NCBI RefSeq assembly: GCF_004010195.1
Contig: NC_057758.1
Span: 5,015,066-5,077,065, forward strand
Reading direction: 5' to 3'
DNA length: 62,000 nt
Origin: Chiloscyllium plagiosum
Lineage: Eukaryota
Positions 8,701 to 62,000 of the stretch are shown here, one piece after another. The notes beneath the pieces were generated by a model, which worked only from the letters and a program-made list of their open reading frames with translations, had not been told where the DNA came from and ran no database searches. The stretch's first letter is position 1. Each line of letters begins with the position of its first letter. A program made the translations under genes and the position numbers.

Positions 8701-10049
8701 AAGCACAAACTCCTGTCACATCCCTATTTGCCACCGTACAAATTTAAATCAACTTCGTCTCTTCCTATTCCTTTCTGCTTTTCTTCTGCCACATCCCCTT
8801 GGTTTTCTGAAATTTCAAACTTCTCGTTTGACTTTCCATTTTCCTTTCACCTTGTGCCGTGGCCCTCCTCGTCGGTGTCAGATAAAAAATTGTGCATATT
8901 CTTTGTAATATAGTTGACCAGGGCACTAGCCCCAGTATAGTATCAGAGGAACCCATTCCAATATAATAGCACACGTATCCCTTCAATGTCGTAACAGTGC
9001 CCACTGAACGAAAACCACTTCTTCTGACATTATTGTTTAATCTTGAAATCCTCCTGCTTTTTTGTGTTATCAGTGTATCTGTAACTCTCCATGTGGTATC
9101 TTCATAAAGCCCTGCAATCTCGCCTGTCCCTATAAGCCCCTCTTACCAGAAAAAAATCAACTCATCCTTATATGTGAATTTGACTCTAATCCCTGTATAC
9201 TTCCCAATCTGAGTAATCTTCTCCAGCCTTCCTTATCTATGCAAACATGTCTTCAGCACCTCTCGCCATTCCTGTCAGTGTAATCTTTTCCAGACTGGAA
9301 AACCTCCGTAACATTGTAACAGCCTGAATTTCCTACTCGCAACATGATCATTGTAACTTTCCCTATAACTACACAAAAAGCGCCCTACCTTTGTCACCTC
9401 CTCCCCTTGTCTCTGTACCATATGCAGAGCTGTCCTACGTCTCACGTCACATAGTCTGTACAGTCATAATGATGATTGTAAAGTCCTCCTGTCGCTAAAT
9501 CACATTCAATCTCTGTAAACGCTGATGATATGTATTCATGTAATCGCTTTCTGTCACAGGACTACTTTACACATTTAACTTCTTTCAGACGTGACAACAC
9601 TGTTTTGTTTCCTTAAGAAGGGCTCATGCCCGAAACGTCGATTCTCCTGCTCCTTTGATGCTGCCTGACCTCCTGCGCTTTTCTCGCAACACATTTTTCA
9701 ATTCTGTTTATTTTCAATACCAACATGAACTCCCAAAATACTCCCTGTGACTGTAACGTTTCCCCATCTCTGCACATCTCAGTCTCTCTTTTAAGCCCTC
9801 ACATTTCCAATGATTTGTCTTTTGCTGTCACCTGTTCTAGCCTCCACAGCCCTCCGTATCTCCAGTTACTACAGCTTCCCTTTCCCTAACTGCCACCAGT
9901 CACTAAAGTATCAGAGTGCCTGGTGAGAGCAGGAACAGTGCACACAGTTAGAAGACCTGTTGTGATCTCATTGAAAGTTGACGCAGGCTCGAGTGGCCAA
10001 ACGGTTGCCACCTGCTACTTTTCCTATGTTTGCCTGACATCTCAATAAA

Positions 10050-12085
10050 CGCCTTCAGTCCCCACGTCCCTTCCTACCTATGAAACCTCCTTCAGTCCTC
10101 ACGACCTTCCCCATCTGTGTAACCTCCTTCAGACCCCACAACCTTCCCCATCTGTGTGACGTCGTTCAGTCCCAACGATCCTCTGTATCTGTATAAACTC
10201 CTTCAGCATCCACGAGTCTCCTGACCTGGTTAACCTCCTTCGGTATACATGACTCTCCCTATCTCCATAATCTCCTTCATTCCCCACGATTGTGCTTATC
10301 TGTGTAAACTTCGTCAGTCCCCATGGCGATCCCTATTTCTGTCTCCTTCAATTCCCACGTCACTCCCGAATTGTGTAAACTGCTTCAGTCTCCACAGCCC
10401 TCATGATGTGTGTAATTGCTTCATTGCCCTCGACGCTCCTTACCTAAATAACCCCCTTCTGTGCCACAGCCCTCCTTAATTCCCTCACCCCTCCCTATCT
10501 GTGTAACCTCCGTCAGACCCCAAGTCCCTCCCTGTCTGTCTAACCTTTTACAGTCACCACGGCTATCCCTATCACTATAATCTCCTTTAAGTAACCATGC
10601 CGCTCGCTATCTATGTAACCTACTTCAGCCCCCACTGCCATCAGGATCTATGTAATTCCTTCAGTGCCCACGGTCCTCCTTATTTGTGAAAACTCCTTCA
10701 GTGCCTACGAGCCTCTTTATCTGCGTAACGTCCTTCACTGCCCACGACGCTCGCGCTCTATGTCACCACCTTCAGTCTCCACGAGCCTACCAATCTGAGT
10801 AACCTCCTTCAGTGCCCACAAAACTCCGTATCTGTGTAGATTCCTTCTGTGCACACGACTCTCCTGATGACCATAATCTCCTTCAGTCTCCACGACCCAG
10901 CTTATCCATGTCACCTCTCTCATTCCCCACGGTTCTCCCTCTCAGTATAATCTTCTTCAGTCCCCACGACCCTTCTAAGTTCCATAACCTACTTCAGACC
11001 CAACGACACGCCTTAACTGTGTAAACTCTTTCGGTACCCATGGCTGTCCCTCGCTGCGTTACCTCCTTCAGTCGCCACGCACTCCCTTTCTCCATAACCG
11101 CTACCAGTTCCCACGGACCTCCCTATTTGTGTAACCTCCTTCAGTCCATACTACGCTTCCTATCTGTATAGCCTCCTTCAGAATCCACGGAATTCCTTTC
11201 CTGTGTGAACTCCTTGAATCCCCACAGTACTCACTTCTTGTGTAATCAGCGTCAGTCCCTAAGACTCTGCCTTGCTACACAAACTCCTTTAATCTCCAAG
11301 ATCCTCCTTATCTGCGTAACTTCCTTCAATCCCCATGACACCCCCTGTAATGTTCTACCGTCCCTACGACTGCCATTTCCATGTAACCTCCTTCAGTTCC
11401 CCATGACACACCCTACCTGCCATACTTCCTTCAGTCCCCATTACCCTCCCCATCTGTGTAACCTCCTTCAGTCCCCACGGCCCCATTATCTCTATAACCT
11501 CCTTCATTCCCTCGACCCTCCCTATCTGTGTAATCTCGTTCAGTCCCCACGGACCTCCCCTTCTGTGTAGCATTCTTCAGTAACCATGGCCCTCCCTAAC
11601 TCCATAACCTCCTTCAGTCCCCACAATACTCTCTATCGGTGTAACCTCCTCAGTTTCTACAGCCCTCACGATCTGTTTTACTCCTTCAGTGCCCACGGCA
11701 CTCCCCGTCTGTGTAACCTCCTTCAGGACCCACCACACTCCCTATTTGTGTAACCTCCTTCAGTCCCCACGTCCTCCCGTTCCATGGAAATTTCTTCTGT
11801 CCCCACGACAGTTGCTCTCTGTATAACCTCGTTCAGTTCCCACGGTTCCCCTATCTACGAAACCGGCTTCACTCCCCACAGACCTCCCAATCTGTGTAAT
11901 CACGTGCAGTCCTCACGGCTATCCCTATCTCTGTGACTTCCTTTAGTCCCCATGCCCCTAAATATCTCTATAACCTCCTTCATTGACTGGACCCTTCCAA
12001 TCTGCGTACACCCCTTCAGTCCCCACTGCCTTCCCTATCTGTCCAGCATACTCAAGCTCCCTATCACTGTAAACTCCTTCATCAA
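10050..12085 (+). repeat. Degenerate minisatellite, 37-bp unit (consensus about CCTCCTTCAGTCCCCACGACCCTCCCTATCTGTGTAA), roughly 55 copies
   Basis: Unit starts at 10086, 10123, 10160. More decayed similar sequence extends left toward about 9100. Confidence 0.92.
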
Positions 12086-12199
12086 AGCCTAGAACACCCC
12101 CAGAGTGAAGAACTTCCTTCCCATCTCTGTGCTCAATGGGTGAGACCTTGCTGGGATTTTATGCCCTCTGGTTACAGATTCTCACACAATCAAAAACAA

Positions 12200-12930
12200 A
12201 GAAAGTGGCAAAAGTAATTATTGCAGACGACAACAAAGTTTGTGGAGTTGTGCACAATGAGGACGGATATCAATGGTTGCAGCAGGATAGAGTTCGGTTG
12301 AAATGTTTAGGTGGAGATAAGGCAAAGAGAGTTTAACTAGACATATCTAATATCTTCGCGCTTGTGTATTGCTCCATGAAAGTGACAATACAATTTGGTG
12401 AGTCTGGATAAAAAGCAGATGGCATGGCTGCCCTCATCGTCCACAAAACTGAGAAGGAATGTTTGCATGTCATGGTGTAAGTAAATTAAACTTTTGTTTG
12501 GCCATATTTGAAATAGCATGTGCAGTTCACATCGCCACACGATAGGCAGTATATGGAGGATTTGGAAAGGGTGTAAAAACAGATTACCAATATGTCGCCT
12601 GTATTACGTGTTTTCACAGTGTATTTGATGTAAGGTAAGATTGAACAAATTTGGACTGTTTTGTTCGAGTCGATTGCGAATGGATTCCCGTGTGGATTTA
12701 TATAATATTAGTGAGAAGCAAAAAAAACGTGGATAGTCGAAATCTCTTTTTCAGTGTAGAAGAGTTAAATACAAATTTGCACAAGATTGTGGTGAGATGG
12801 CTAAAGTTTAAATGAGAATTGCGAAGTAAGTTTGTTTTTGCAATGAGGATGGAAAGTGCCTTGGGAACTACTCAATGCAGAAATGAGAACCCAGTCTTTA
12901 AGTGGCACCTCAATAGACACATGTGGGTTG
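12200..12930 (+). mobile_element. Degraded CR1 ORF2 3' fragment
   Basis: IADDNKVCGVV.NEDGYQ.LQQD followed by CR1 3'-type sequence. Confidence 0.6.
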
Positions 12931-12944
12931 GGTGTACAGAAAGG

Positions 12945-15125: not shown

Positions 15126-16225
15126 CTTCCCTGGCCCCCAACGCCTTATCTTCACCATGGACATCCAGTCCCTGGACACCTCCATCCACCATCACGAAGG
15201 CCTCAAAGCCTTCCGCTTCCTCCTTTCCCGCCGAACCAACTAGTACCCTTCCACTGACATCCTCCTTCGACTGACTGAACTGGTCCTCACTCTTAACAAC
15301 TTCTCCTCCCAATCCTCCCACTTCCTCCAAACCAAAGCAGTAGCCATGGGCACCCGCATGGGCCCTAGATATGCCTGCCTTTTCGTTGGATATGTGGAAC
15401 AGTCCATCTTCCGCAGCTACACTGGCACCACACCCCACCTTTTCCTCCTACATTGATGACTGTATCGGCGCTACCTCGTGCTCCCACGAGGAGGTTGAAC
15501 AGTTCATCCACTTTACTAACACCTTCGACCCCGACCTCAAAATTACCTGGACCGTCTCAGACACCTCCCTCCCCTTCCTAGACCTCTCTGTCTCTATCTC
15601 GGACGACCGACTCAACACGGATGTATACGATAAACCGACTGACTCCCACAGCTACCTAGATTACACCTCTTCCCACCCTGCCACCCGTTGTGGACACCCG
15701 CACCAACCAACCCAACCGCCCTGTGGCTAAACACTTTAATTCCCCTCCCACTCCGCCAAGGACATGCAGATCCTTGGCCTCCTCCATTGCCAGACCATGG
15801 CAACACGACGCCTGGAGGAAGAGCGAATCATCTTCCGCCTAGGAACCCTCTAACCACAAGGGATGAATACAGATTTCTCCAGCTTCCTCATTTCCCCTCC
15901 CTCCACCTTTTCTCAGTCCCAACCCTCAGACTCAGCACCGCCTTCTTGACCTGCAATCTTCTTCGCGACCTCTCCGCCCCCAACCCCTCTCTGGCCGATC
16001 AACCTCACCTTAACCTCCTTCCACCTATCGCATTCCCAACGCCCCTCTCCCAAGTCCCTCCTCCCTACCTTTTATTTTAGCCTGCTTGGCACACCCTCCT
16101 CATTCCTGAAGATGGGTTTTTGCAAGAAACGTCGATTCTCCTTTGATGATGCTTGAGCTGCTGCGCTTTTGCAGCAACACATTTTTATTCTCAGATCCCC
16201 AGCATCTGCAGTCGTCACTTTATCC
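15126..16225 (+). mobile_element. Penelope-like element fragment (RT, internal deletion, GIY-YIG C-terminus, 3' end)
   Basis: FTMDIQSL.TSI, LVLTLNNF, AMGTRMGP.YACLFVG, YIDDCIG, LPFLDL, KPTDSHSYLDYTSSHP, then RLEEERIIFRLGTL. Ends in a CTGAAGA...GAAACGTC motif. Left end lies in an assembly gap. Confidence 0.9.
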
Positions 16226-21774: not shown

Positions 21775-23930
21775 TTCTTGCAACGGCTTGTCAACCTAGA
21801 TCAATCTACGTCAAGTCCGTCCTTCCAGCAAGAGCTTCCAAACAATCATTCACTCTGTTCCCCTTGCAACAGCTGTGAACCCATCCTGTCTCTGTTATTG
21901 TAGAGAAAATGCCTGTGACCCTATCGCCATCTATTTCCCTAGCAACAGCCTGTAGCCCATCCCTACTCTACTATTTGAGAAATGACCTGCGAACACATTC
22001 CCACTCTGTCCCTGGAGCAAAGGCCTGAAGACTCATCATACTCTGTTTTCCTTGCAACAGAATGTGAAACCCCATCCTGTGAATATTCTCCGAGCAATGG
22101 CATTTGAACACATTTTCACACTGTTCTCCTCGAAGCATCCTGTGACCCTATACCAACTCTGTCTCCCTCGCAACGGTCTCAGAAACTATTCCCACTCTGT
22201 TCCCCTAGCATCGACCGGCAATCACATCTTCATTCTGTTCCTCAAGCAACGAATTGCGGACAACCATGTAAAGTCTGTTCTGCCAGCAAGGGCTTGTGAA
22301 CAAACTCCCACTGTCCTCCCATCAAGATACTGTGAACCAATTCCTCCCTGTGACAACATCGTCACTCTGCTTCCTTTGGAACAGCCTGTCAGCCCATCGG
22401 CACAGTATTCCCTGAATAATGGGTTAAAAACAATGACTGCAGATGCTGGAAACTAGATTATGGATTAGTGGTGCTAGAAGAGCACAGCAGTTCAGGCAGC
22501 ATCCGAGGAGCAGTAAAATCGACGTTTCGGGCAAAAGCTCTTCATCAGGAATACAGGTAGAGAGCCTGAAGGGTGGAGAGATAAGTGAGAGGAGGGTGGG
22601 GGTGGGGAGAAAGTAGCATCGAGACTCCCCTAATAATAGCCAGTGAAACCATTCGAAAGCTCTTCTCAATGCAACAGACTGTGCACTTACTCAGAAATGT
22701 TCTCCCAGCAAAGGCCTGTGAACCCATCGTAACCTTTTTCACCCACGAGCGACTTGTGAACTCACCCTCACTCTGATCCTCTCTAAACATCCTGTGAAAG
22801 CAGACCAACTCTGCTCTCCTACAGACTGTGAACCTATCATAAATCTTTCTCCGAGAAACAGCCTGTGAACCCATCCCCACCCTGTTCCCTAAGCAAAAGT
22901 CTGTAAGTCCATTTCCACTCTGTTTCCTTGGAAACGGCTTGGACACGCATTGCTGTTCTGTTTCCCCAGCAAGTTCCTGTGGATACATGCAACCGTTGGT
23001 CATCTCCAACGGCCTGCGAACGCATCCCCAAATTGTTCCACTAAGAATACCCTGTGAAACCGTGTCCACCCAGTTCTCCAAGCAACTGTCTGTGAACCCA
23101 TCCGCAACCTGTTTTTCGAGCAGCGGCCTGTGAATCAATTCTCATTATGTTCGCTGAGCAATGGCTTGTGACAATATCCCCATTCTGTTTACTGAGCAAC
23201 TGCATGTGACCCCTTCCACACTCTGTTGTCGTCGCAACTGGCTGTGACCCCAACCTACATCTGTTCCTCTCAGAAAAGCCTCTGAACACATCCTCACTAG
23301 ATTCTCATAACAATGACCCGTTAAGTATCACAGCTCTTTTCTCCTGGGAACAGTGTCTCGCGAGATACCCACTCTGTTCCATTAGTAACGGCCTGTCATC
23401 TAGTCACCAATCTGTCCCCAGCAAAGGACTGAGTACCCCTCAACGTGTGTTACCATAGCAAAGCCCTGAACACTTCGCTATTGTGTTCTCGTAGCAACCG
23501 TATCTGATGCATCCTCCTTTTGTTCGCTTTTCAATTGCCTGTGAACCGATCCCCACTCTGTTCCTCTAGAAACAGCTTGTAACTAAGTCTCCACTCTGTT
23601 TCCGTAGGAGTGGCCTGTGGATCCATCTCAACACCTGGAAACGGCCTGTGACCGCTATACCACTGTGTTTCCCTGGCAACAACATGTGAACACATTTCCA
23701 AGCTATTATTTTATTAACGGCCTATGAAACAATTCCAACTCTGTTCTCCCAGAAGCATCCTGATAACCTATCTTAAATCTGTTCTCCGAGCAACGGCTTC
23801 TGAACACATCCCAACTCCATTCTTCTACCTTGGCCTCTAAACCAATCCTCATGATGTTCCCCACGCTCTTCTCCTTGCAACGGACTGTGAACCCCACCCC
23901 TCTGTTCACCCAGCAATTGACTGCACCCAT
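21775..23930 (+). repeat. Degenerate minisatellite, about 38-bp unit (consensus about GCAACGGCCTGTGAACCCATCCCCACTCTGTTCCCCGA), roughly 50 copies
   Basis: Recurrent cctgtgaacccatc...actctgttc at 37-38 bp spacing, interrupted at 22424-22620. Confidence 0.88.
22424..22620 (-). mobile_element. Penelope 3'-end fragment with a hammerhead-like core, inserted in the 38-bp array
   Basis: Minus strand reads CCTGATGAAGAGCTTTTGCCCGAAACGTCGATT at about 22517-22549. Same family as 30562-30750. Confidence 0.8.
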
Positions 23931-24369: not shown

Positions 24370-25196
24370 TGTTACGAAAGCGACAGGCTGCTTCATTTCT
24401 GATACATTGATTAGAGAAGAGAAAATCTCGGAAGAATTAATGAGAGAAACATATTTTTAGATGAATTTTGGAATAGTTTTCAACACGGGATGAATCTCTC
24501 TGCTAATTTAAACCTGTAACAGAGAAAGATTTACCCCGTGCGGTAATCTGTAATAATTTAGAAGATAATAACTATTTTAAGTCACAAGTTAAAGTAAAAA
24601 TTAACTATTTCTTAATGTCTAAGAGACAGTAAGTAATTACCAAATATTCACAACTCCTTCCTCTCACCCATCTTTTACTTTCACTTCCATAATACTAAAC
24701 CGCTAAAACGCCAGAGTACCATGGACATCAAATACTGATTTCACGACCAGGGAGCTGTCGAACCATTTGTATCCTCCTGTATAGAGTTTCATCTTCTTAG
24801 GGATTATTGTGTCAAGGATATACATTCTTGTGGCTGTTAAAGGCATCTTTAAAAAAGCTGTGTGTCTGGTAGTCTGTACATGTTAACGGCTTGTCAATTC
24901 TCCCTAATCTATTTACGTTTTCCCAGTATTATATCGCTAAAGCATCGGACTAAGTCACTGTTTTTTTTTTAATATTTTCAATGTGCTAAGTTAAAATTTG
25001 ATTGTAGTATGGTATTTAGGGATACAGTTTAAACTGATTGCCCTAAGTCCATTGTTTGCTCTCTGCAGTCAACCAGCTACACTAGCGGCTGGAACAAAAT
25101 GTTACATTGCATCTTGTTCAGAACACTTCGTGTTGTCAGGCAGTTCTGCTATTTTGTAACTCTCTTAAAGGTACAGTACACCCAACTTTCACAACA
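24370..25196 (-). mobile_element. Putative solo LTR (about 830 bp) abutting the GPCR exon-2 3' end
   Basis: TG...CA ends with imperfect 11-bp terminal inverted repeats (TGTTGTGAAAG...CTTTCGTAACA, 9/11 match) and an AT-rich interior. No TSD seen. Confidence 0.5.
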
Positions 25197-26067
25197 AACG
25201 GCACATTTCAGCACATTCTTCAACTGCTGTCTGAACTTTGTCTGGATCATGGCATAAATCGCGGTGTTTGTGCAGCAACTGAGAAGCTTCTGCATAAAGG
25301 CCAATTCCAGAATAAAGTCATTGAGATGCACAGATTGATATCCAATGTCATACATCCGATACCATATGGAATACACCATTAACGTTGGCCATAACAGTAT
25401 GAACTTGGCCGCAATGACAAACAGTAAAATAATGGATTTTTTCCGATTTTGCATTTCTGTGTCAGACTGAGCGTTTCCATTGGTGTGAGCCCGGAGTCTC
25501 CTGCGGACTCTGCTGGTCATTAATATATGTTTAATGGTGAAAACATTGAGCAGCAGAATCAGGAGAAATGGGAGAGCCGGAGTTAGAACGTGATGAAGGA
25601 ACTCCATTGTGGCCCAGACAGGAGAGTACTTGACAGTGAGTGTTACAGCACAAAACCAGGGGGAGTTCCATAGCCAATACCGAGACGTGTACATAAAATA
25701 CCAGAAAATGTTCTTTAAGCAGCTCAGCACATTGACTGTTCCCAGAACTATAGCCGCCGTTTTCTCACTGCAATATTTGTTTTTCAGCTTCTGGCAACAA
25801 AGGGCCACGAATCGATCAAAGGTCATAGCAACGGTGTACCAGACAGAACAGTCAGTGGTTGCATAAAGCAGGACTGCTTGGATATACACACGGGGATGGA
25901 CCTCACGAAATGAAACTGTTTCGGATAAACAATGGGTATGTGTCTCAATATCAGGTCGAGGATAATGACCAATAGGTCTGCCACTGCCATGGCCCCAAGG
26001 TAACGTCTGATACACGGAGACAATCCACAATCTTTATAAATCAAGACATAGATCGTCATTACATTTA
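25149..26067 (-). pseudogene. Second exon (TM1 end to TM7 and tail) of a GPR139/GPR142-like GPCR, with a 1-nt frameshift
   Basis: Acceptor TTTGTCTTTTTTCACAG|TAAAT. The first frame reads NVMTIYVLIYKDCGLSPCIRRYLGAMAVADLLVIILDLILRHIP...PVC, switches frame near 25885, then continues IQAVLLYATTDCSVWYTVAMTFDRFVALCC...LLSCCTNTAIY. DRF replaces DRY and NTAIY replaces NPxxY. The coding sequence is split over ORFs 25823..26089 and 25149..26030. Confidence 0.9.
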
Positions 26068-26743
26068 CTGTGAAAAAAGACAAACACACAACTTATACAT
26101 CAACCTGGAGTCAACGTTACCGGTTTGATTGATAACACAATGAGAGTTTGAAACATGTCACTGCATTCAGATATTTATTGAAATAATTGGAGCTTAAATA
26201 TAAAACAGGAAGGTCTGAATTACTCAGAAAAATGCGATATGAAACGCAAGAAGTCTTCCCTCCCCAACGAGACACAGACACATCAATAAGGACAGAATGG
26301 TTTCTGGAACACTCCTACATACTCAATCAGGACACTTTCCTCATTCCTGAAGAAGGGCTCATGGCCGAAAGGTCGATTTCCCTGCTCCTTGGATGCTGCC
26401 TGACCTGCTGCGCTTTCCCAGTGGCACATTTTCGGCTACATACTTAATCACTCGCGGGTAGACACCGGTCACTTCATCCCACTTCTAATATGGAAGGTGA
26501 AAACATTGTGGTCCTGAAGTATTCTATCCCAGTATATTGAAGGCAAATGGCGTTTGGAAATTTCTGACCTTTCGTCTCAATTGTGGTCAATTGTATGCCA
26601 TGAAGAAATGTAAATGATGGGAAAACGTATTCATTCCTTTAATTGCCAGAGGGAAGATCAAAACAGTGTTTCTTTCTCAATGGAAGGGGATCCGTTCCCT
26701 CAGGGTCTTATCTTTCTTTTTCAGTTTACTAATATCGGAGGTT

Positions 26744-26949
26744 GGAAATGTGTTGCTGGAAAAGCGCAGCAGGTCAGGCAGCATCCAGGGAACAGGAGAA
26801 TCGACGTTTCGGGCATAAGCCCTTCTTCAGGAAGGGCTTATGCCCGAAACGTCGATTCTCCTGTTCCCTGGATGCTGCCTGACCTGCTGCGCCTTTCCAG
26901 CAACACATTTCCAGATCTGATCTCCAGCATCTGCAGACCTCACTTTCTC
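26744..26949. mobile_element. Short palindromic Penelope-end element with a hammerhead-like core and 15-bp TSD
   Basis: 82-bp inverted arms (26744-26825 and 26831-26912, one mismatch). Flanked by CTAATATCGGAGGTT at 26729-26743 and 26950-26964. Confidence 0.85.
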
Positions 26950-26974
26950 CTAATATCGGAGGTTCACAAATCTG

Positions 26975-30527: not shown

Positions 30528-33500
30528 TGCAGTATGTTTGAGGTAGGGGTGTCCATCGATACCTGGATTAGTGGTGCTGGAAGAGCACATCAGTTCAGGC
30601 AGCATCCAAGGACAGGCAAAATCGACGTTTCGGGCAAAAGCCCCGAAACGTCGATTTTGTCTGTCCTCGGATGCTGTCTGAACTGCTGTGCTCTTCCAGC
30701 ACCACTAATCCAGAATCTGGTTTTCAGCATCTGCAGTCATTGTTTTTACCCCGTTTCGACCACCGATACTCCAGTCAGATCCTGCTCCTCACAGAACGAG
30801 TTAGGGAACTGGAACTGGAGTTGGATGAACTGAGGATTATTCGAGAGGCTGAGAGGGTGATAGATAGAAGCTACAGGGACATAGCTACGCTATGCTAGTT
30901 TTGCTGTCTGGAATGTAAGCAGCCATGTGCAGTATCTTCAACTGGGTAACAGTTAGAGGTGGGAAGGGGAGGAAGCTGGCAGTGTAGGGATCCCCTGTGG
31001 TCGTTCCCCTAAACAATAAGTATACCGCGTTGAATACTGTTGTGGGGACGGCCTAGCAGGGGTAGGCTGCAGTGACCGGGTCTGTGGCGCGAGGTCCTGC
31101 TCTGAGACTCAGAAGGGAAAGAGGGAGAGGAGGAGAGCGCTAGTTATAGGAGACTCTCTAGTTAGAGGGACGGACAGGCGGTTCTGTGGACATGGGCGAG
31201 ACTCTCGGATGGTTCGTTGCCTCCCGGGTGCCAGGGTCCGAGATGTCTCGGACCGTGTGTTCAGAATCCTTAACGGGGAGGGTGTGCAGCCAGAGGTCGT
31301 GGTGCACGTTGGCACCAACGACATAGGTAGGAAGAGGGGTGGGGAGGTCATTCAAGAGCTCAGGGAGTTAGGCTGGAAGCTAAACGCTAGGACAGACAGA
31401 GTCATCATCTCTGGGTTGTTGCCGGTGCCATGTGACAGTGAGGCAAGGAATAGGGAAAGAGTGCAGTTGAACACGTGGCTGCAAGGATGATGTTGGAGCG
31501 AGGCCTTCAGGTATTTGGGCAATTGGACTGCATTCTGGGGAAGGTGGGACCTGTACAAGCAGGACGGGTTGCACCTGAACCAGAAGGGCACCAATATCCT
31601 GGGGGGTAGGTTTGCTAGCACTCTTCGGGGGGGTTTAACTAATTTGGCAGGGGGATGGGATCCGGACTTGTAGTCCAGCAAGTAGGCTAGCTGTTTGTCA
31701 GGATGTCCAAGAATGTAGGGAGGCTGTGAAGAAGGTAGCACTGACAGGGAATACTTGCGGACACAGCGATGGGTTCAAGTGCGTATGCTTCAACGCAATG
31801 AGTACCCGAATTAAGGTGGGTGAACGTAAGGCGTGGATTGGTACCTGGGACTACGATGGTGTGGCCATTACGGAAACGTGGATAGAAGAGGGACAGGAAT
31901 AGTTGTTGGAGGTTCCTGGTTACAGATGTTTCAGTAAGATTAGGGAAGTTGGTCAAAAAAGGAGGGGGGTGGCGTTGCTAATTAGAAATGGGAGAACGGC
32001 TGCAGAAAGGCAGTTCGAGGGGGATCTGCCTTTGGAGGTAGTACGGGCTGAAGTCAGAAATAGGAAAGGAGCAGTCACCTTGTTGGGTGTTTACTATAGG
32101 ACCCCCAATAGCAGCAGAGATGTGGAGAAACAGATTAGGAAACAGATTTTGGAAAGGTGCAGAAGTCACAGGGTAGTAGTCATGGGCGATTTCAACTTCC
32201 CAAATATTGAATGGAAGCTCTTTAGATCAAGTAGATTGGATGGGGCGGTGTTTGCGCAGTGTGTCCAGGAAGCTTTTCTAACTCAGTATGAAGATTGTCC
32301 GACCAGAGGGGAGGCCATATTGGATTTGGTACTTGGTAATGAACCGGGACAAGTGTTGGGCTTGTTAGTGTGTGAACATTTTGGTGATGGTGACCACAAT
32401 TCTGTGACTTTCACCTTGGTTATGGAGAGAGATAGGTGCGTGCAACAGGGTAGGTTTTACAACTGGGGGAAGGGTAATTACGATGCTGTAAGACAGGATC
32501 TGAGGAGCATAAGGTGGGAGCATAGTTGGGAAGGATGTCGTGGAAATGTGGAACTTTTTCAAGGAACAGATACGACGTGTCCTTGATATGTATGTACCTG
32601 TCAGGCGGGAAAGAAATGGTCCTGTGAGGGAACCTTGGTTGACGAGGGAGGTTGAATGTCTTGTAAAGAGGAAGAAGGAGGCTTGCATAAGGTTGAGGCA
32701 ACAGGATTTAGACAGAGCAGTGGAGGGATACAGGATAGCCAGAAGGGACCTGAAGAAATGGATTAGGAGGGCTAAGAGAGGTCATGAAAAATCTTTGGCG
32801 GATAGGTTCGAGGATAATCCAAAGGCATTTTATGCGTAAGTGAGAAACATGAGAATGACGAGAACGAGGGTTGGTCCGATCAAGGACAGTAGTGAGAGAC
32901 TGTGTATTGAGTCGGAAGAGATAGGAGAGGTCTTGAATGAGTACTTTTCTTCAGTATTTACGAACGAGAGGGACCGTATTGTTGAAGAGGAGAGTGTGAA
33001 ACGGACTGGTAAGCTAGAGGAAATACTTGTTAGGAAGGAAGATGTGTTGGACATTTTGAACAACTTGAGGATAGACAAGTCCCCCGGGTCTGACGGGATA
33101 TATCCTAAGTTTATGTGGGAAGCAAGAGAGGAAATTGCAGTACCTTGGCAATGATCTTTTCGTCTTCACTGTCAACGGGGGTGGTACCAGGGGACTGGAG
33201 AGTGGCAAATGTTGTGCCCCTGTTCAAAAAAGGGAAAGGATATCCCCGGGAATTACAGGCCAGTTAGTCTTACTTCGGTGGTAGGAAAAGTAATGGAAAG
33301 GGTACTGAGGGATAGGATTTATGAGTATCTGGAAAGACACTGCTTGATTAGGGACAGCCAACACGGATTTGTGAAGGGTAGGTCTTGCCTTACAAGTCTT
33401 ATTGAATTCTTTGAGGAGGTGACCAAGCATGTGGATGAGGGTAGAGCAGTGGATGTAGTATACATAGATTTTAGGAAGGCATTTGATAAGGTTCCCCATG

Positions 33501-35039: not shown

Positions 35040-37985
35040 TAAACAAAAAGTTGGCTGACAGAACACTGCAAGCCAGGCAGCATCCAGAGTTGGAGACGTC
35101 CACGTTTTGGGCTAACTCTTCTTCAGATCTGTGGTTGGATGTAAAGTGAACTGCAGATAAAAGTGGTGGCGGGGGCAGTGTCGTGAAGTGGACGTATATG
35201 AAGACAGGTAGAGGGTACCACCTGGTTGGTCATTGGGGAAGGGAGATGAAGGCTGCAGGTGTCTGGGAGGATTGAAGGGAGGGGAAGGGGCAGGGAAGGA
35301 ATTCGAGTGATGGGATGGGAGGTTATTTGAAATTGAAATACTCAATTTGGAAAACTCTGGGCTGCAGGTTGCCCAAGCGAAACATAAAGTGTTGTTCTTC
35401 CAATTTTCCTTTAGGTTCATTATGGCTGTAGAAGAGGCGAAGGATCGTTGAGTCTGTATGGGAGTGAGAAGGCGATTTAAAAGTGTAGTGGCTGGGAACA
35501 CCGTTCGTCGCCTGCAGGCCCAGCCGTGATGCTTGGCGAACTGTTCCCTAATTTTACGTTTGATCTCCCCGATGCAAAGAAGACCACATCACGAGCACCT
35601 GATGCAGTTAACTATGCAGAGAGGCATGTCAACATTTGTTTCAAATGGATGGACTTCTTGGGGTTCCGAAAGGATGTGAGGGGTTGCTGTACGGACATAT
35701 TTTGTGCCTTTTCCTGTTGCAGTGGAAAGTCTCTGGGGATTCGGGAGGATTGGTGGGTTGAAGTGAGCAAACCAATGACTGGCAAAGGGGGTGATCCTCG
35801 TGGAAGCCAGAGAGGGAAGGGGAGGGGAATATGTCCTTGCAGGAGTGGTCTGATGGAAGTTGGCGAAAGTGTTTAAGTATGATGTCTTGGATACAGAGAT
35901 TGATGCGTTAGTAGGTGAGGGTACGGGGGTGGTGGTGGGGGGGCTGTATGTTTATTGCTCAGAAAGTGGTATTTCCAGGCAGTTGAAAGGGGAATGGAGT
36001 TGATGCGGGGAGTTCTATTGAATTACGGAGGGAAAAAAGCACGTTGTTCGAAATAGGCGGCAATCTGGAGTGCTCACGAGTAGAACGTCTCCTCGTGTGA
36101 GCAGATGCAGCGTAGGTGGAGGACATGGGAGAATGGGATGGAGCTCTTGAAGGATACTGGGTGGCAGAAGTTGTAATCCAGGTATTTAATGGGGGTCTGT
36201 AGGTTTATCGTAAGCGTCCCTTTGGAGACAGTCACCCAAAGTGGAAATGGAGTGGTCAAGAAAGTGGAGGGAGGTGTCCGAAATGGAACAAATGAATTTG
36301 ACGACAAGGTGGAAATGGTGGATGAAGATGATGAACTGCTCCAGTCCAATCTGGGTGGAGGTTGCTGTGCCGATGCAGTCATCAATGTAACCGCAGTAGG
36401 GTTTTGGCACAATGCCTCTGTGGGTACTAAAGAGGGCTGTTTGAAGTACCCAAAGTAGAGGCATGCATGACTAGGTTCCATCCGAGTGCACATGGACACC
36501 CGCTTGGATTTGGAGAAAATGGGAGGAATTAAAGGAAACATTACTGAGGGTGGGGAATAATCGGGTGGGCGGAAGAGGGTGTGGAAGAGGAAGACTGGAT
36601 GTTTATATTTGGAGAGGAAGAAGATGAGGACCTGGAGGCCATCCTTGGTCGTTTTGACGTGTCTAAGGACACGACGTCCATCGTGAATATCCCGTGCTGG
36701 GGGACGGGGTACTGGAATTCTGAAGAGATAGAGATAGTGGTTGGTGTCAGGGATTCAGGTGAGAAGTGACTGAACCAAAGGGGTGAGGACAGAGTCGAAA
36801 CAGAATGAGATGATTTCGAAGGGGCTGGAGAACGCCCAGACGATATGTCGGACAGGGTGGTTTGGGCATTTGGATCTTAGGATGCAGGTATACTCCGGCA
36901 GTGGCGGGGGGGGGGGGGTTGAGGGACGATGAGATTGGAGGTGGTGGAGGAGAGATCACTGCATGCAATAAGGGCACAAACAATGCGCGTAGATTTGGCC
37001 TGATGGGATACGGTGGGGTCGTGATCAAACGGGAGGTAGGATGTGTAGTTGGATAGTTAGCATTCAGACTCTGCGAAATACAAAATCGTTCTCCAGACTA
37101 TCACCTTCGTCAACGCTTGGGTTAACCATCACAAAGTGAGTAGAGTGCTGCATGTTTGGACGCGATGAATGTTGAGTGCGTTCATGTGGTGGAGATAGTG
37201 AGGTTGATGTTACATCGGCAGTCTGCAAGATAGAGGTCTGGGACAGGTACAAGTCCTTCAGATGGTGATCAGGTGGAGAAGCAAGGTTGGAGGCGGGAGA
37301 CGGGGTCCTCCGAGGGAGGTTGGGAGGGTTTGGCAAAGAAGAAGACATGGAAAGAGAGGGCGAGAAAGAAGAGCTCCACGACGTGACGGGTCCTGCATTC
37401 GTTGAGGTGGAGGTAGAGGGGTAGGAATCTGAGCTTTATCTTGAGGACAGCCCGTTGGGCCACCGAGAATTCGAGGTTGTGGCGGCAGCGAATTAGTTTG
37501 AGGGGCTCGTGGTGGGTTTTAGAGGGAGTCCAGAGTTTGCTGGTGGGGAGAGCTGGTGTGCTGGTTAGCTGTAGGTCGGCAGTAGGACTCAGTGATGACC
37601 CTGAGAAATGTAGACTGAAACTTAATTGCAGAGTGGGCGGAGCCAGTGTTAGAGGTGGAAGCTGGAGGAACTTCAAATTTGGTTGGAGTGTTGCTGTCAG
37701 CAGAAGCCGGGCAGTGTTGTTGGAGAGGTCCGGAGCAGAGACTTAGGTTCTGGGTGAGTACTTGGGGTTCCATGTCAGTGCTTTGACGGCCTGGGTAACA
37801 AGCCGGAAGGTGCGTCTGACCCGGAAGTAGCTTTGGACTGGAGAGACCCAGTGCTGGATGGAGGTTCCACGTGGATAATATTCGTGGCACCAATGTAAGG
37901 CGGGCCTGCAGGCGGCCGGAACCAGGGCACAAATTTCAAACAGCGAGCAAGTTCTGTGCATAGAGGTGAGGGGAGCACAGTTTCC
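35040..37985 (-). mobile_element. Long degraded Penelope-like element
   Basis: RT remnants (TRMEPSHACLYFGY, YIDDCIG, HFLD, KPTD) at about 36100-36700. GIY-YIG-region remnants (CIRCSRCGLLCIGE; KLEEQHFMFRLGNLQP) at about 35340-35650. Terminal CTGAAGAAGAGTTAGCCCAAAACGT at 35101-35126. Confidence 0.8.
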
Positions 37986-41805: not shown

Positions 41806-43369
41806 TGCCTTAACAATAAGCAATACTTCATATTTAACTGATATAAATTCCGTCAGCCTCTCTTCGATATTGCAGCCCATCTGAAAAAGGTCCCGCTGTA
41901 TTCTGAGGTAACCTTCTTCACTGTCGACTGCACCACACGTTTTGTGGTTATCTATAAACTTACTAACTATTCCTACGATGTTCACATCGAAATCGTAAAC
42001 ATAAATGAAAACATCCAATGGACCCAGCATTAATTCTTTTCGCACATTGTTTAAATCCACCCAGAAGCAGATAGAATGTTTAACTGTGACGTGCCCTTCC
42101 TTTTCCCTCTTAAAATGTGAAGACTGAAAATACTGGAGATCAAAATCGAGAGTGTGTTGCTGCAAACGTTCAGCAGGTCAGGCAGCATCCGAGGAGCAGC
42201 AATATCCATGTTTCGGGCAAGAGCCCGTCATCCTTTTCACTTCCCGATGAATAATATCCCCCACTCCAAACTTTGATGGAGAGGGCTTTCAGCTCGAACT
42301 GACCCGTCTGCTGCACTTGTTCCCTCAACCCTTCCCCTCCGTCCCAGATCAAGTCAACCTTTACTACTGCAGTAAACACAATACTTTCTGATCTAAAATA
42401 AAACACAGAATTGCAGATGTTGGAGATCTGAGACAAAACATCTTTCAATGAAGAGTCCCTAGATTTGACATGGTATCTCCGCTTTCTTCCAACAGGTGCA
42501 GTCAGAACGGCTGCGGCTTACAAACAATTTCTTGCAGATCTTATTTCCTGCTTATAACAAGCACAAAATTTGCCCTGCAGATTTGACTTAGACATATAAA
42601 TTCCACCAGTGATTTTTAAAAAAATTCCATGCTGTTTCGATGATCCACCCAAATTGTTTCTGTGTAATCTTAGCACTGTTGTCTATAGTGATGTTCATGG
42701 TGTATTCCATGATGTGTTTTCTGAGGCCTTTTTAAATATTAAAATAATCCCACTGCCTGTCCTTCGTTATTCTCAAGGGGAATTATGAGATTGTCCCTGA
42801 CTCTCCCCTTGTGCAGGCAGGGTGGAAAGGGACAATGTTTGCCCAGCAATGCTGGCCATTCGTCCCGATGGCTTATAATACTGTAAACTGGATTGTGGGG
42901 GAGACAACCAAAGAGCAGGCAAGCATGGTTTGGTTTCATGGCTTCCATCCTCGTCCCAGACCAAGGGGAAGTCATGCTTATGACCTCCCCACCCAGAATG
43001 AGCTTCGTGACCATTTCCACAATGCAAGTTTAGGGAGGACAGTAAATTTCCCCCTGCATATCAGATGCAGGCTCAATATCAGGGCTGTGCAATTCAGTTC
43101 CGCATGGACTGTGTTTGTCCCGGTGCACGATGGAGCTTTCACAGATGACGCTAGTTTCCGGGATGCTGGGTAAGTCAGGACTCCGGTAAATGACAGTTGC
43201 TCTGGGAATTATTTACAGTAAGCAGTGGGAACGACCCGACAAGATTATCACTGTGAGGCCTCAAACACATGTATTGAGTTTGGTGAGATTCACTTAGCCA
43301 CACAGAGGGAATCTTGCCCCAAACCCAACTCAACTGGCACTTTGCTTAAAGTACGAAAAGATTTATCTA

Positions 43370-56705: not shown

Positions 56706-56709
56706 TCTG

Positions 56710-57050: not shown

Positions 57051-59177
57051 TGTATGGGAGACAGTGTGTAGAGATGAACGATGTCGGCTCCTCCGGTTTA
57101 ATTGCACACTCAGAACTCATTAATTCAGTAATTATCATGGAACATGAGGCAGAAACAGAAATGAATTTACGGAAACAGGAAACAACACTTATTCCATCTT
57201 TGGTGTGATGGTTATGGTAAGTGTTTCACTATTTGGACAATGCTATAATTTCCAACCGATGGTTCACCATCACATGGCACAGTTTGCGTAATATGCAGAG
57301 CACAGCTCCCTCATTATCTTCCTGGTGTGGAGATTTAAAATTGCAGTAAGGATGCCATACTACAGTTTTACAAGACATTCGTGAGATTACATCCTGAATT
57401 CCATGTGCAGATTTGGACAGTAGCTTTTTTTTTTGTTTCTGTAAACATGTTGGCGACTGGCCAGAGGGAGGAAAGTTGTCAAGCTGGCGTTGTTTCCATG
57501 GGTGTTCTGATGATTGAGGAGTGACTTTATAATTTCCTGTAAAATCTTCGCAATGTGTGTGCGATAATGATCAATTAGCTTGTTGATGAGTTTTCGGCCA
57601 GCACAGGCACTCGGGTTCAATCAGTCGTAATCATATTGAATATCAGAATGGAGGGGCCAAATGCCCACTTCAGCTCGTAGTCCCTGTGGATCTCCCTGTA
57701 CAATTACTTTCTGGATGATATCCTTTTCATCAATACTAACTTCATCTAATTATTCGCAAGTACTCCTTGTGGAATCTATAATGTCCTCTGTGGAAAGTCA
57801 GCAGTGTTCCTAAGACACCATCTTCTAAAACTACAAACACATCGATCGAAAAGTAGAGTGCAGTATGCACATCGGAACACCATCATTTACGAGGTCTCCT
57901 CCAAGCCACTTGCCATCCTGACTTGGAAATATATCAACATATCATTGTTCTTTCAGGGTTTCTCCAAATCCTGTAACACCTCTCCCCCCTCCCCCACCCC
58001 TCACACACCCGCCCCACTGAATGGTATTATGTTTCAATCTACACCAACTGGACTGCAGCAGGCCAACAAATAGCTGACTGCCATTTTGTTCCAGGCAACT
58101 TTGGATAGAAAATAAACGCTGGCCCAGCCAATAACACACACAATCCATAGATATGTTAAACTTAATACAAGTTACTCAGTTCACTGGTACTGCTCGGTGA
58201 TTTTCTCTCCTCCATCCATAATGACAGAAACAATGTGTACAGCTACCATGCAGCAGGTAACCTGCATGACCTAATGGATACCTCGAAGGATTGCATCCTG
58301 GGAATTGATGGAAATCATATTCACGTCTGCCTGGGAAGTTCCACATCATAGAAATTCACTAAAACTGTGACGTTAATGGCCACTGGAAACACATCCCTCA
58401 ACGTGGTGTGACACTGAATATTTAGTTGGAAGTGGTGACCCAGCTCTGACACCACCTCCTCTTTGAACCAGGCTTGCCTCACTCTGCTGTTACAATTTGT
58501 GGGAAACTTTTCCTGCACGTCAGGATTTATCAGGTGCACAAATTGCCTCACGTCCTCAATTTACCCCACCATCTTCCTCCTATTTCTTTTCTGAGCTTTT
58601 CCTCTCTGCAGTCTTTGCTTAGTTTTTCACTGACTTTTCAGCTCCTCATTGAATCGATGCCGCAGCTCAAACGCAACCGCAACAAAAGCATGCACAGCAC
58701 CGACGCAAACTTTCTGATGGTTCAAGTGCATTACATTTCAAAAACACAGAGGATGCCCATTCGCTATTTAGCAAACCAGTCTCCTTTCCTTAACTTTGCA
58801 CCTTTATGTTAATTCCATTTTCTTAAGAAATACTTTCAGATTTGAAAATTGGACTTTTCATCCTTCCATAGAAGTATTTGACAGTGTAGCTCGTACTGTT
58901 TACTGAAGTGCAGCTTCTCGAACACCAGTGGTGCCTGTTGAGGTAAACACCACACTCAGACAAAGAAACAGAGGGAAAGAAATTCTCTTGAATAGGGTAT
59001 TGCATATGTATGGAAATGGAAAGAATTTTCTGGACAAAATGTTAAGGCCGAGGAAAAGGACTCATCTTTCTTTTCGGTAATTTTTTAAAACATATGGGCA
59101 ATATGGGAAATAGCAGTTTTTCGTGTCAATCCTGTAATTCCCTGAATTGGGAGGCTTGCTCAACCATTCTGGAGGAC

Positions 59178-59356
59178 AAGAGTGTGGTGCTGGAAAAGCA
59201 CAGCCCGGCAGGCAGCATCAGAGAGGCAGCAGAATCGACATTTCGAGCATAAGCACTTTGTTAGGATGTCCTCGGATGCTGCCTGACCGGCTGTGCTTTT
59301 TCAGAACCAAACTCTTTGACTCTGAACTCAAGCATCTGCAGTCTTCACCTTCTCCT
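59178..59356. mobile_element. Older palindromic Penelope-end element
   Basis: Imperfect inverted arms. Flanked by attctggaggac and attccagaggac (degenerate 12-bp TSD). Confidence 0.7.
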
Positions 59357-60036: not shown

Positions 60037-60217
60037 CAGGAACACCAACGATAGCGAGGATAGGAAAGTATCCAGCTTGGACCACCCAAAATGCACCCCA
60101 GAGCCGATAGGATAATGGTATTCGATCACGAAAAAGCCAGGAAAGACCCAAAGGTAAACTCCTGTACATTGTTGGAACATTCCAGTTTATTGATCTAAGA
60201 CTCTGATCCATTGTCAT
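60037..60217 (-). CDS. First coding exon (N-terminus to mid-TM1) of a GPR139/GPR142-like orphan class A GPCR, copy A, apparently intact
   Basis: Reads MTMDQSLRSINWNVPTMYRSLPLGLSWLFRDRIPLSYRLWGAFWVVQAGYFPILAIVGVP+G, then a canonical donor CCTG|GTGAGT. Length 181 nt (phase 1) matches the phase of the exon-2 acceptor at 26067, and joining gives ...GVPVNVMTI (TM1 Asn). Confidence 0.85.
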
Positions 60218-60339
60218 AACGTGCCAGTCTGAAATTTTAAGATTCTGACCTCTTGTATGCTTTGCTGTGTAGCTGCTGATACCTGTTCGTGTCGGAGGTG
60301 ATGCACACGATCATTCTATGGAGTAACACATCGAGCGCA

Positions 60340-60430
60340 GTCCCTTATTCATAAGAGTGATAAATCCTCCAGTGACACGTTTTGAATCATGGGGACTGAC
60401 ATTTATTACAGTCACTGAGCAAACAGATCC
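60340..60430 (-). promoter_or_regulatory. Putative promoter block upstream of first exon A
   Basis: Non-coding block shared with the other copies: gactgacatttattacagtcactgagcaaacag vs 41358 gactgacatttatcatcgtcacccaacaaacag, and aaatcctccagtgacacgttttgaatc vs 20475 aaatcttccagcgacaacgtttggatc. Confidence 0.5.
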
Positions 60431-62000
60431 ATTTAACTCCTTTTATTTTAACACATGTTCTCTCACAATAAACATAATATCGAGCCAATCTGGGTAGAAG
60501 GCATTGCAGAGAATGCGGGAAACATATATAGAAATAGGAGCGGGAATGAGCAGAAACATTCTATCCTCAGAGGACATAATCGATTCAGCAGATGATTGAA
60601 GAGTTGTACAGAAAATAAAATGATATAAACACTAGAAAAATACCCATTGTTTTCATAATCATCAAATAATTTTGGAAAATTCAAGAATGCAAGATGTGGA
60701 GAAAAGAGTTGCTGTTCAGAAAACATACATTCATAAGGAAAATAAAGCAATCTGTGTTTGTGAATAAAAAAATTGTACCGAGTCCATTCTGTCCTTTGAC
60801 AGAGTAGCTTGCAGTGCGTATTATGAGATGGAGATCATTATGCCTCAAGGTGCATCAGAACCTAATATAATGTCATTTAGTTGAACTTGTTTAGGAAACA
60901 GAATCCAATCAATTGAAGTGGTGTGAGAAACTGGACATGGCATTGAACAAAAATACAGAAAACAGGGAAGTGAAGAGAGATGGTTGTTCTGATATTAATC
61001 ACTTGGCATCAGTATTTGTGCAGTGCATTTGTGGAATGATATCAAATAAATCAAATGGAGAGTTCACTGAAGGAATCCAGAGGAATGAAATACAAGATCT
61101 GACATTGTAAAAGAAAACAAAAGACTGTGAGCAGGAAGACCGGGACATAAGCGTGTCAGAACTGGGTTTCTCCGTTTCAAACATCGAGTCTCCAAATGAC
61201 AGGAGGTACTTATTCGCCCAGATTTCATTTTCACCATTTGAAATTTTTCTATCAGGGAGTAACGGAGACTTTTTATTCGTATTTTAATGGTGAGTCAAGT
61301 CCTGAATACGTATTACACCCGAAACATTGACTTCATTTCCTGATGCTGCCTGGCCTACTGTGTTCTTTTAAGCCCGTGCGTGTCTACCTTGGATTCCTGA
61401 ATCCCCCGTGTTCTTTGCCTGGAACATGTTTGAACATCTGAAATGACTGCATTTGTTCCTATGTTTGATCTTGTAAAACACAGCTTCTACTTTGTTGAGT
61501 AGGAACACAATTTAGAAGTAATAAATCTCCATTTTAAGATTGACGAAAGGATATAATTTCCTTCTTAGAATTAAGCTCTATTTAGCATTCTGCTTGCCAG
61601 GGAGGAGGACAATCTAATTCACTGACGGTACTCAAGTTTTACCTTCATAGTTTGTTGATGGAAAAAGCATTAATGTTTACTTAGATGGGACAGGAAAGGA
61701 GTGTTCCGCCACAGTCAGATCAGCCATGAGCATTCTGAATAGTACAGTAGGCGTGTGGGGCTCAATGACAACTGCTGTTTTTACACATGCTTTTGACTTT
61801 TAATCAATACTTTAAGGCTGCTATTGTGGCCAAAGAATAGACGATTCAACCAATCAGGATTGTTACCCTCGGAAAGAGCATTTGTTTCCTCTAAAATTAT
61901 AAACAGCCGTACAATGATATAATTGAATTCTCTGATTATGTTACACGACACAGAACGATGACTATAAAATTCCAAGAACAACAACAGAGATTTCCTACGC

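What the first reader, a model, noticed from the sequence alone, without database searches (positions are those of the whole stretch)
9611..61331. About ten dispersed Penelope-end elements carry a minimal hammerhead-ribozyme-like core
Seen: the motif CTGA(A/T)GA-A-GGGC-N4-GCCC-GAAACGTC recurs at 9611(+), 16106(+), 22521-22548(-), 26347(+), 26802-26830(-), 30625-30651 (CTGANGA deleted), 35101-35126(-), about 42210(-), about 59237(-) and 61301(+), in various states of decay. Two copies are termini of recognisable Penelope elements; the rest are solo. Known: CUGANGA, stem II and GAAA followed by a GUC cleavage site form the hammerhead core. Penelope-like elements carry minimal hammerheads whose palindromic stem III is thought to act as a dimer. 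Inference: this is a high-copy non-autonomous ribozyme-bearing family. Minus-strand copies in the GPCR introns could cleave pre-mRNA. Caveat: stem I looks only about 2 bp long.
Basis: partly seen in the sequence, partly recalled or inferred. Interest (0 to 1): 0.7.

Follow-up and report, generated by a model that had tools for sequence, protein, structure and literature searches.

The report
Penelope ribozyme stubs, capped run-off copies
These ten repeats are short, mostly decayed end-pieces of a very common Penelope-type jumping gene that carries an already described minimal hammerhead (predicted self-cutting RNA) motif; they likely arise when the copying enzyme runs off the capped start of the element's RNA just in front of the motif, and they are unlikely to cut the host gene's RNA.

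Summary
In detail: 10 loci (13 arms) match a Penelope-like element (PLE) terminal repeat (pLTR) with a minimal hammerhead. One core is perfect and one nearly so. The window is typical of its genome: 87,506 exact cores genome-wide (control 0) and 358 arms in 1.6 Mb sampled. Four families keep the core while stems I and II and the stem III palindrome change in a compensatory way, so master elements were likely selected for the fold. Single copies decay at CpG sites. This is the known PLE minimal hammerhead. Most copies are stubs of about 95-130 bp. Their 5' ends pile up at the ribozyme's front edge, with an extra G specific to one position (G:A 1855:592, against 274:327 one base upstream), which likely records a capped RNA start. 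About 20% of insertions are head-to-head palindromes with exactly one 'tail', likely built anew from two cDNAs. Cleavage of GPCR pre-mRNA is unlikely: the only intact sense copy is predicted to be locked in a perfect hairpin, and the exon is frameshifted. This scan reported the same family and the cap-G reading before, on other DNA. Cleavage itself is untested.

The parts
9590..9708 (+). Solo pLTR stub without tail; core 9612-9639 with G5>U (predicted dead)
15126..16225 (+). 5'-truncated, internally deleted PLE remnant (RT part 15126-15682, endonuclease C-terminal part 15693-15916) ending in a tailed pLTR; core 16106-16133 with broken stem II
22432..22615 (-). Tailed pLTR stub with about 65 nt of upstream pLTR; core 22521-22548 intact, one A.C mismatch in stem II; lies downstream of the GPCR stop codon
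26329..26438 (+). Solo pLTR stub without tail, 9-bp target-site duplication (26315, 26436); core 26347-26374 with broken stem III; antisense in the GPCR intron
26737..26951 (.). Head-to-head palindrome, 15-bp target-site duplication (26729, 26950); minus arm has the only perfect core (26803-26830) and no tail; plus arm lacks CUGA and carries the tail; folds as a perfect hairpin
30561..30743 (.). Head-to-head palindrome; both arms begin in stem II and lack CUGANGA; one tail
35053..37104 (-). Older, diverged PLE remnant (RT, linker, GIY-YIG; many stops and frameshifts) ending in a pLTR; core 35099-35126 with G12>A and H17>G
42114..42232 (-). Tailed solo stub starting inside the core (lacks CUG), H17>G
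59175..59356 (.). Decayed head-to-head palindrome, one tail
61298..61400 (+). Old stub of a sister subfamily with a longer stem I (AAGUC/GACUU); G8 mutated
25149..26067 (-). Host context: second exon of a rhodopsin-family GPCR, one frameshift near 25,900 (pseudogene or assembly error); first-exon candidates near 41,049 (decayed) and 60,037-60,169

Best explanation
The ten repeats are insertion stubs of the terminal repeat (pLTR) of endonuclease-bearing Penelope-like retrotransposons, carrying the known minimal hammerhead motif, and most were likely made when the element's reverse transcriptase started about 95 or 128 bases into a capped sense RNA and ran off its 5' end just in front of the motif. 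Shown by sequence: PLE link, hammerhead anatomy, cross-family compensation, copy number, CpG decay, fixed 5' hot spot, position-specific extra G, one-tail rule, target-site duplications. Inferred: (1) a pLTR promoter starts the RNA at the A of AUUC, so the first four bases of the RNA are the 5' strand of stem I, which would explain the short stem I; (2) the protein nicks both target strands and primes one cDNA at each of the two start sites; one surviving cDNA gives a solo stub, two joined by microhomology give a palindrome with one tail; (3) the template is usually uncut; (4) the ribozyme would act only in element RNA, as a dimer through ACGU and probably with protein help, where a cut 32 bases from the cap would remove the cap or trim read-through RNA. 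The dispersed copies are most likely passive debris.
For: PLE ORF remnants run straight into the motif in the window and in related loci (RVT_1 at E=1.5e-4, below the curated cut-off; GIY-YIG above cut-off). A stem-free core scan of 160 evenly placed 10-kb stretches gave 228 hits against 24 in reversed DNA, clustering into families of 120, 33, 13 and 6. Stem I, which the scan did not require, pairs in each: position 2.1-1.1 in 97/120, 29/33, 13/13, 5/6; position 2.2-1.2 in 109/120, 30/33, 12/13, 6/6, with C-G/A-U, U-A/A-U/C-G swaps. Stem III is ACGU or AGCU. N7 and loop II vary most; G12 is kept in only 80% of 199 arms through CpG decay. Solo 5' ends: stop rate 0.025-0.040 per base around the front edge against 0.003-0.008 elsewhere; 92 of 207 end there; same place for 106 tailed and 101 tailless copies (P=0.15), while a fixed-length model is rejected (P=3e-5). 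Base just 5' of AUUC in truncated copies genome-wide: G 1855, A 592; one base further upstream G 274, A 327; background G:A 0.70; Fisher P=4e-44. The second family has TATAAA 32 bases before its matching A in 7 of 8 long copies, and G before that A in 4 of 9 shorter copies. RNA reads of run X19 have their largest 5' loose-end class at exactly this A (99 reads). Palindromes: 59 of 299 insertions; one tail in 46 of 50 classifiable (P=2e-10); duplications of 8 bp or more in 39 of 59 against 1 of 59 controls. In 60 copies of two recurrent junctions the tail is on the full-core arm in 24, on the partial arm in 33, on neither in 3, on both in 0. This fits in vitro work on a lizard PLE: both strands cut and extended, two internal starts, tail between them, ribozyme not needed for insertion (PMC11167929). 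An extra G marks capped L1 templates (PMC11702581).
Against: No cleavage, cap or transcription start was measured. About 15 of the first 100 G-class matches (hand tally) are explained by palindrome symmetry or stem I microhomology; the excess remains after removing them. Only 44% of solo ends fall in the hot zone, which is about 25 bases wide, so other starts or ordinary truncation contribute. The main family has only an AT-rich TTTTAT box at about -30, not a canonical TATA. The family-B G count is small. The extra G could be non-templated addition at any blunt RNA end. A smaller bump of 5' ends lies at the predicted cut site (14 of 207 at positions 104-108; 24 of 100 by hand tally, about 9-10 at neighbouring positions), so some templates may be cut, though 8 of the 24 are microhomology junctions. 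The 3' stem I match is weak in the main subfamily (U.U at position 3 in 70 of 120). Only four families support the covariation, and they share ancestry. No intact full-length element was recovered.
Confidence: 0.75

Rival explanations
1. The stubs are a non-autonomous family: short capped RNAs made from the many dead pLTR copies, not from protein-coding elements, are mobilised in trans by PLE protein (SINE- or retrozyme-like).
For: Stubs far outnumber copies with an ORF attached (about 29 of 207 solos reach more than 180 bases upstream of the core). Any pLTR that keeps its promoter would yield the same RNA start. pLTRs can mobilise unrelated DNA in trans (PMC3846280). pLTRs are related to retrozymes (bioRxiv 10.64898/2026.07.22.740005).
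Against: No fixed master structure: junctions vary, the tail falls on either arm and one junction recurs on several haplotypes. Tandem units, which define retrozymes, are rare (9 same-strand pairs within 300 bases among 204 arms). A stub that starts at the A lacks the upstream box.
Confidence: 0.25
2. The 5' hot spot reflects the reverse transcriptase stalling at the folded or dimerised hammerhead, or joining at ATT microhomology with the target, not the RNA's capped start.
For: The stop zone is fixed on the template and lies at the ribozyme edge. Several solo junctions share 2-7 bases with the target duplication. The lizard enzyme prefers ATT targets (PMC11167929).
Against: Neither stalling nor microhomology predicts a G at one position only, nor TATAAA 32 bases upstream in the second family. 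The enzyme passes through the ribozyme before stopping.
Confidence: 0.12
3. Palindromes arise by fold-back (self-priming) of a single cDNA or of an antisense template.
For: Junctions sit on short self-complementary patches (737 and 759 exact copies of two junctions). The two arms almost always share a haplotype: C/T discordance at a 65:52 site in 2 of 58 pairs. Self-priming was proposed in PMC3846280.
Against: A fold-back copy cannot be longer than its template, yet the partial arm carries the tail while the full-core arm lacks it in 33 of 60 cases. A later nuclease trimming step would be needed.
Confidence: 0.1
4. Sense-strand intronic copies cleave the GPCR pre-mRNA and regulate it.
For: One perfect core (26803-26830) lies on the GPCR's strand, upstream of exon 2. 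Family RNA is present in both orientations in run X19.
Against: That core is predicted to be sequestered in a perfect hairpin (-194 kcal/mol, z -25.7). The other sense intronic copies are dead. Single motifs do not cleave in vitro (PMC4209133). Density in the window (13 arms in 62 kb) matches the genome average of 232 per Mb. Exon 2 is frameshifted.
Confidence: 0.04

Closest known systems
Minimal type I hammerheads (min-HHR) in pLTRs of metazoan Penelope-like elements (Cervera and de la Pena 2014, PMC4209133; review PMC6765202)
   Same: CUGANGA core, extra base between positions 9 and 10.1, G10.1-C11.1 pair, no helix III loop with palindromic 15.2-16.2, short helix I, location in pLTRs, mostly dispersed single copies, some pairs on opposite strands, several consensus families per genome.
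   Different: Stem II is 4-5 bp in the two largest families (7-8 bp in Schistosoma). Copy number is about ten times the largest reported there (87,506 exact cores of one family against about 9,000 motifs in Xenopus). No cartilaginous fish is named in the main-text parts read; supplements were not read.
EN+ PLE insertions with inverted pLTR, one-sided 30-40 bp tail and TSD (PMC3846280; PMC8557442), Neptune/Nematis type
   Same: 5' truncation, inverted 5' copy, tail at one end, TSD, DKG motif, C-terminal GIY-YIG, CX4CX2C linker.
   Different: Here the stubs are reduced to 95-130 bp and the one-tail rule is quantified. Those papers explain palindromes by self-priming and the tail by endonuclease resolution; the present counts favour two separately primed cDNAs.
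Poseidon element of Anolis (PAc), in vitro mechanism (PMC11167929)
   Same: Two internal RT starts bounding the tail, both strands extended, uncut RNA used as template, hammerhead near the RNA front.
   Different: Different clade by linker motif. The passages read do not report a cap-derived G or the one-tail rule.
Non-LTR retrozymes (bioRxiv 10.64898/2026.07.22.740005; PMC7229834 seen as search listing only)
   Same: Type I hammerhead, PLE pLTR origin, non-coding.
   Different: Retrozymes are tandem arrays; these copies are solo or head-to-head and flanked by TSDs.

Membership tests
PLE minimal hammerhead (min-HHR) | Core CUGANGA ... GAAA ... UH with extra base after A9 and G10.1-C11.1 | tested here: met
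   only 2 of 10 window loci keep it whole
PLE minimal hammerhead (min-HHR) | Helix II and helix I with compensatory changes | tested here: met
   across four families; little stem II covariation within the main family
PLE minimal hammerhead (min-HHR) | Palindromic 15.2-16.2, no loop III | tested here: met
   ACGU in three families, AGCU in one
PLE minimal hammerhead (min-HHR) | Located in the pLTR of a PLE | tested here: met
   (tested for the main family and the 35126 family; not for the other three families)
PLE minimal hammerhead (min-HHR) | Self-cleavage as a dimer | not testable with these tools
   cofolding puts an intermolecular helix over ACGU but says nothing on catalysis
EN+ Penelope-like element | RT with DKG motif followed by C-terminal GIY-YIG | tested here: met
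   pieces from different decayed copies, no intact ORF seen
EN+ Penelope-like element | Inverted pLTR, one-sided tail, TSD | tested here: met
Neptune/Nematis clade | CX2-5CxxC linker between RT and EN | tested here: met
   CX4CX2C in L038; degenerate in window 35928-35695 (motif definition from PMC8557442)
Neptune/Nematis clade | RT phylogeny with reference elements | not tested
   no reference PLE proteins were fetched
Non-LTR retrozyme | Tandem repeat units each with a hammerhead | tested here: not met
   9 same-strand neighbour pairs within 300 bases among 204 arms; no tandem in the window
Non-autonomous element with its own master copy (SINE/MITE-like) | Fixed ends and structure inherited from a master | tested here: not met
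   trans-mobilisation of pLTR transcripts remains open
Rfam hammerhead families | Covariance-model match | tested here: not met
   no hammerhead match at E<=1; expected for motifs lacking helix III (inference)

The most novel reading that the evidence does not exclude
PLE transcripts begin at the first base of the hammerhead's stem I. A dimeric protein primes two cDNAs from the two target nicks, one at each RT start site of one RNA haplotype, and both run off the cap. This single mechanism would make solo hammerhead stubs, head-to-head palindromes and the one-sided tail, would fix the template as the capped, uncut sense RNA, and would recast the ribozyme as a decapping switch at the RNA's front rather than a tool that releases the template.
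Probability: 0.6. Interest if true: 0.55.

Novelty: new member of a known kind. Interest (0 to 1): 0.3.

Why it matters
The ribozyme motif in PLE ends is published, and dispersed copies like these are debris. The value lies in what about half a million copies record about the unresolved PLE replication cycle: which strand is copied, where the RNA starts, why the tail is one-sided, and what the hammerhead is for. The cap-G and one-tail counts make these questions directly testable with the existing in vitro PLE system. I found no paper stating the cap-G point (searches, 77 of an open-access library only), but earlier notes of this scan reached it on this and other genomes.

Tried and rejected
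Rfam scan: no hammerhead family match. Pfam on 12 window ORFs: no match for the PLE fragments; only the GPCR and a LINE were named. Monomer folds of six copies: none gave the full hammerhead, z-scores from -2.3 to +1.9. Idea that the two arms come from two RNAs of a mixed pool: suggested by L001, L002, L006, L010 and L024, but those loci were chosen by a query carrying a rare allele. In 50 random pairs the arms differed at 13.6% of polymorphic sites against 39.6% for random pairs, and in 58 unbiased pairs only 2 were C/T discordant at a 65:52 site. Rejected, though two RNAs from one locus remain possible. Idea that copies start at the cut site: minor bump only, confounded by microhomology; one search's listing was not tallied. 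Apparent G excess at position 71 proved to be a subfamily variant. 5' extents of palindromic arms were contaminated by inverted homology and were dropped (100 of 319 arms; 12 more were dropped for N upstream). Search for an intact full-length element: long open frames were mostly runs of N. Sequencing runs: no RNA holder listed. Of two raw-read runs, X20 gave no reads and X19 showed no pile-up of read ends; a poly(A) single-cell library is not a test of cleavage. Lunse et al. (PMC5785218) is not held and is known only through the review.
Full report
Observation. The motif is present at all ten stated loci. A profile built from genomic copies finds 13 arms in the window at E<1e-3, since three loci are head-to-head palindromes. 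Only 26803-26830(-) has a perfect core and stem II; 22521-22548(-) has an intact core with one stem II mismatch; the other eight are broken or incomplete. Rfam gave no hammerhead match. The window comes from a 3.56-Gb assembly; 'shark' is the label used in earlier scan notes and was not tested here.

What the repeat is. Translated searches with related loci place PLE reverse-transcriptase and endonuclease remnants directly upstream of the copies at 16106(+) and 35126(-). Of 21 loci and stretches fetched around RT matches, 20 hold the same pLTR. The proteins carry the DKG motif, a CX4CX2C linker and a GIY-YIG domain, which points to the Neptune/Nematis type by the definition in PMC8557442 (passages read). 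No tree was built and no intact ORF was seen.

Hammerhead anatomy. In standard numbering the motif reads stem I 5' strand AUUC, C3-A9, one extra A, 4-bp stem II, G12-A14, then A15.1-C-G-U16.1 and C17. This is the minimal type I hammerhead of Cervera and de la Pena (PMC4209133; parts 1-2 of 4 read, figures and supplements not seen). They report no cleavage for single motifs and low cleavage for dimers. To test structure I scanned 160 evenly placed 10-kb stretches (1.6 Mb, 59 kb N) for the core alone: 228 hits against 24 in reversed DNA, clustering into four hammerhead families of 120, 33, 13 and 6, three small unrelated clusters (7 hits) and 49 singletons. Stem I pairs in all four families with different letters; own-family pairing is 2-3 of 3 positions against 0-2 across families. 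Within the main family position 2.3-1.3 is U.U in 70, G-C in 14 and U-A in 13 of 120. Stem II differs between families but keeps G10.1-C11.1. Stem III is ACGU or AGCU. This suggests selection on master elements (inference; four related families only). In single copies the core is no better kept than the downstream pLTR, and the CpG positions, including G12, have lost 20-30% (199 arms), as expected for neutral decay.

Copy number. Exact main-family cores number 87,506 genome-wide, control 0. The sample holds 358 arms, 232 per Mb (CI 203-264). Exact cores are 1.4-fold denser in the sample than genome-wide, so the total is about 0.6-0.8 million arms. The window, with 13 arms in 62 kb, is average.

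3' ends and palindromes. 3' ends fall in two groups about 33 bases apart, matching the PLE 'tail', which in a lizard element lies between two RT start sites (PMC11167929; parts 1-2 of 4 read). Solos are 118 tailed, 111 tailless, 11 unclassified. Palindromes make up 59 of 299 insertions; 46 of the 50 classifiable have exactly one tail, and 39 of 59 have duplications of 8 bp or more against 1 of 59 controls. Two junctions recur 737 and 759 times. In the first 30 of each, the tail lies on the full-core arm in 24, on the partial arm in 33, on neither in 3 and on both in none; several haplotypes share a junction; and the two arms nearly always share a haplotype. So palindromes are likely built anew at insertion. 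Simple fold-back cannot give a copy longer than its template, and there is no sign of mixed templates. Two cDNAs primed on opposite target strands, one at each start site, fit best (inference). PMC3846280 (passages) proposed self-priming instead.

5' ends. Among 207 solos, ends pile up around the ribozyme's front edge (92 of 207), at the same template position for tailed and tailless copies. An earlier scan note (e1-8639255) suggested a capped RNA, which I then tested. The base just before AUUC in truncated copies is G 1855 times and A 592 times; one base upstream the counts are 274 and 327, near background. About 15 of the first 100 G matches are symmetry or microhomology cases (hand tally). 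The A sits in an initiator-like TCATTCC (consensus recalled), with an AT-rich box about 30 bases upstream (read from the reference copy). The second family has TATAAA 32 bases before its matching A in 7 of 8 long copies. In RNA reads of run X19 the largest 5' loose-end class lies at this A; these reads come from many passively transcribed copies and re-show the junction, not the cap. An extra G marks capped templates in L1 (PMC11702581, passages), and a pLTR promoter with an initiator is known for Drosophila Penelope (PMC2377424, passages). A smaller bump at the predicted cut site is ambiguous.

How it likely works. A pLTR promoter makes a capped sense RNA whose first bases form stem I. The protein binds near this end, nicks both target strands, starts at about +95 and +128, and runs off the cap. 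One retained cDNA gives a solo stub; two give a palindrome with one tail. Longer insertions would start in a downstream pLTR. The ribozyme is not needed for this. In element RNA it would cut 32 bases from the cap, as a protein-assisted dimer; this role is untested.

The GPCR idea. A rhodopsin-family exon lies at 25149-26067(-) with a frameshift; first-exon candidates are near 41,049 and 60,037. The only intact sense copy in the intron folds into a perfect hairpin. The other sense intronic copies are dead, and 22548(-) is downstream of the stop. Cleavage of this pre-mRNA is unlikely.

Novelty. The motif, its PLE setting, inverted ends and tail are published. A search for hammerhead, shark and Penelope found one paper, which names sharks only for the ribozyme's shape. 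The bioRxiv retrozyme study includes one chondrichthyan genome (part 1 of 5 and passages); its supplements are closed and may list this family. Searches for twin priming, start site and cap, and untemplated G with Penelope found no paper making the cap-G or one-tail argument (listings only). Earlier notes of this scan did make it, on this and other genomes. Verdict: new member of a known kind, interest 0.3.

Noticed in passing
window 25149-26067 (-), 41,049 (-), 60,037-60,169 (-), about 20,100 (-): Two-exon rhodopsin-family GPCR with a frameshift in exon 2 and several first-exon-like pieces, suggesting a decaying tandem cluster (GPR139-like by recall, not tested).
   Followed up: partly
window 28849-28989 (-): Weak match (36% identity, E=5e-4) to a PLE GIY-YIG domain, likely a third, more distant PLE remnant.
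   Followed up: no
window 31020-34632 (+): LINE with a GDSL esterase-like ORF1, endonuclease and RT.
   Followed up: no
window 46600-49300 and 53500-56800: Long degenerate repeat tracts giving many overlapping open frames.
   Followed up: no
L064, L069, L075, L094, L107, L185 and others: Second PLE family with an AGCU-palindrome hammerhead, TATAAA 32 bases before the inferred start, and AATAAA about 10 bases after the cut site in part of the copies.
   Followed up: partly
L088, L107, L102, L081: Two further hammerhead families with longer stem II; in the family of 13 the upstream sequence is kept in the copies seen, so it may not share the front-edge hot spot.
   Followed up: no
main pLTR, model positions 126 onward (window 26872 onward, +): A conserved ATG opens a frame that stays open through the tail; it may be the ORF's N-terminus, as in other PLEs. 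No copy with the continuation was found.
   Followed up: no
L069, L075, L141, L185, L186, L201: The second family forms the same head-to-head palindromes that turn at the hammerhead's front edge.
   Followed up: no
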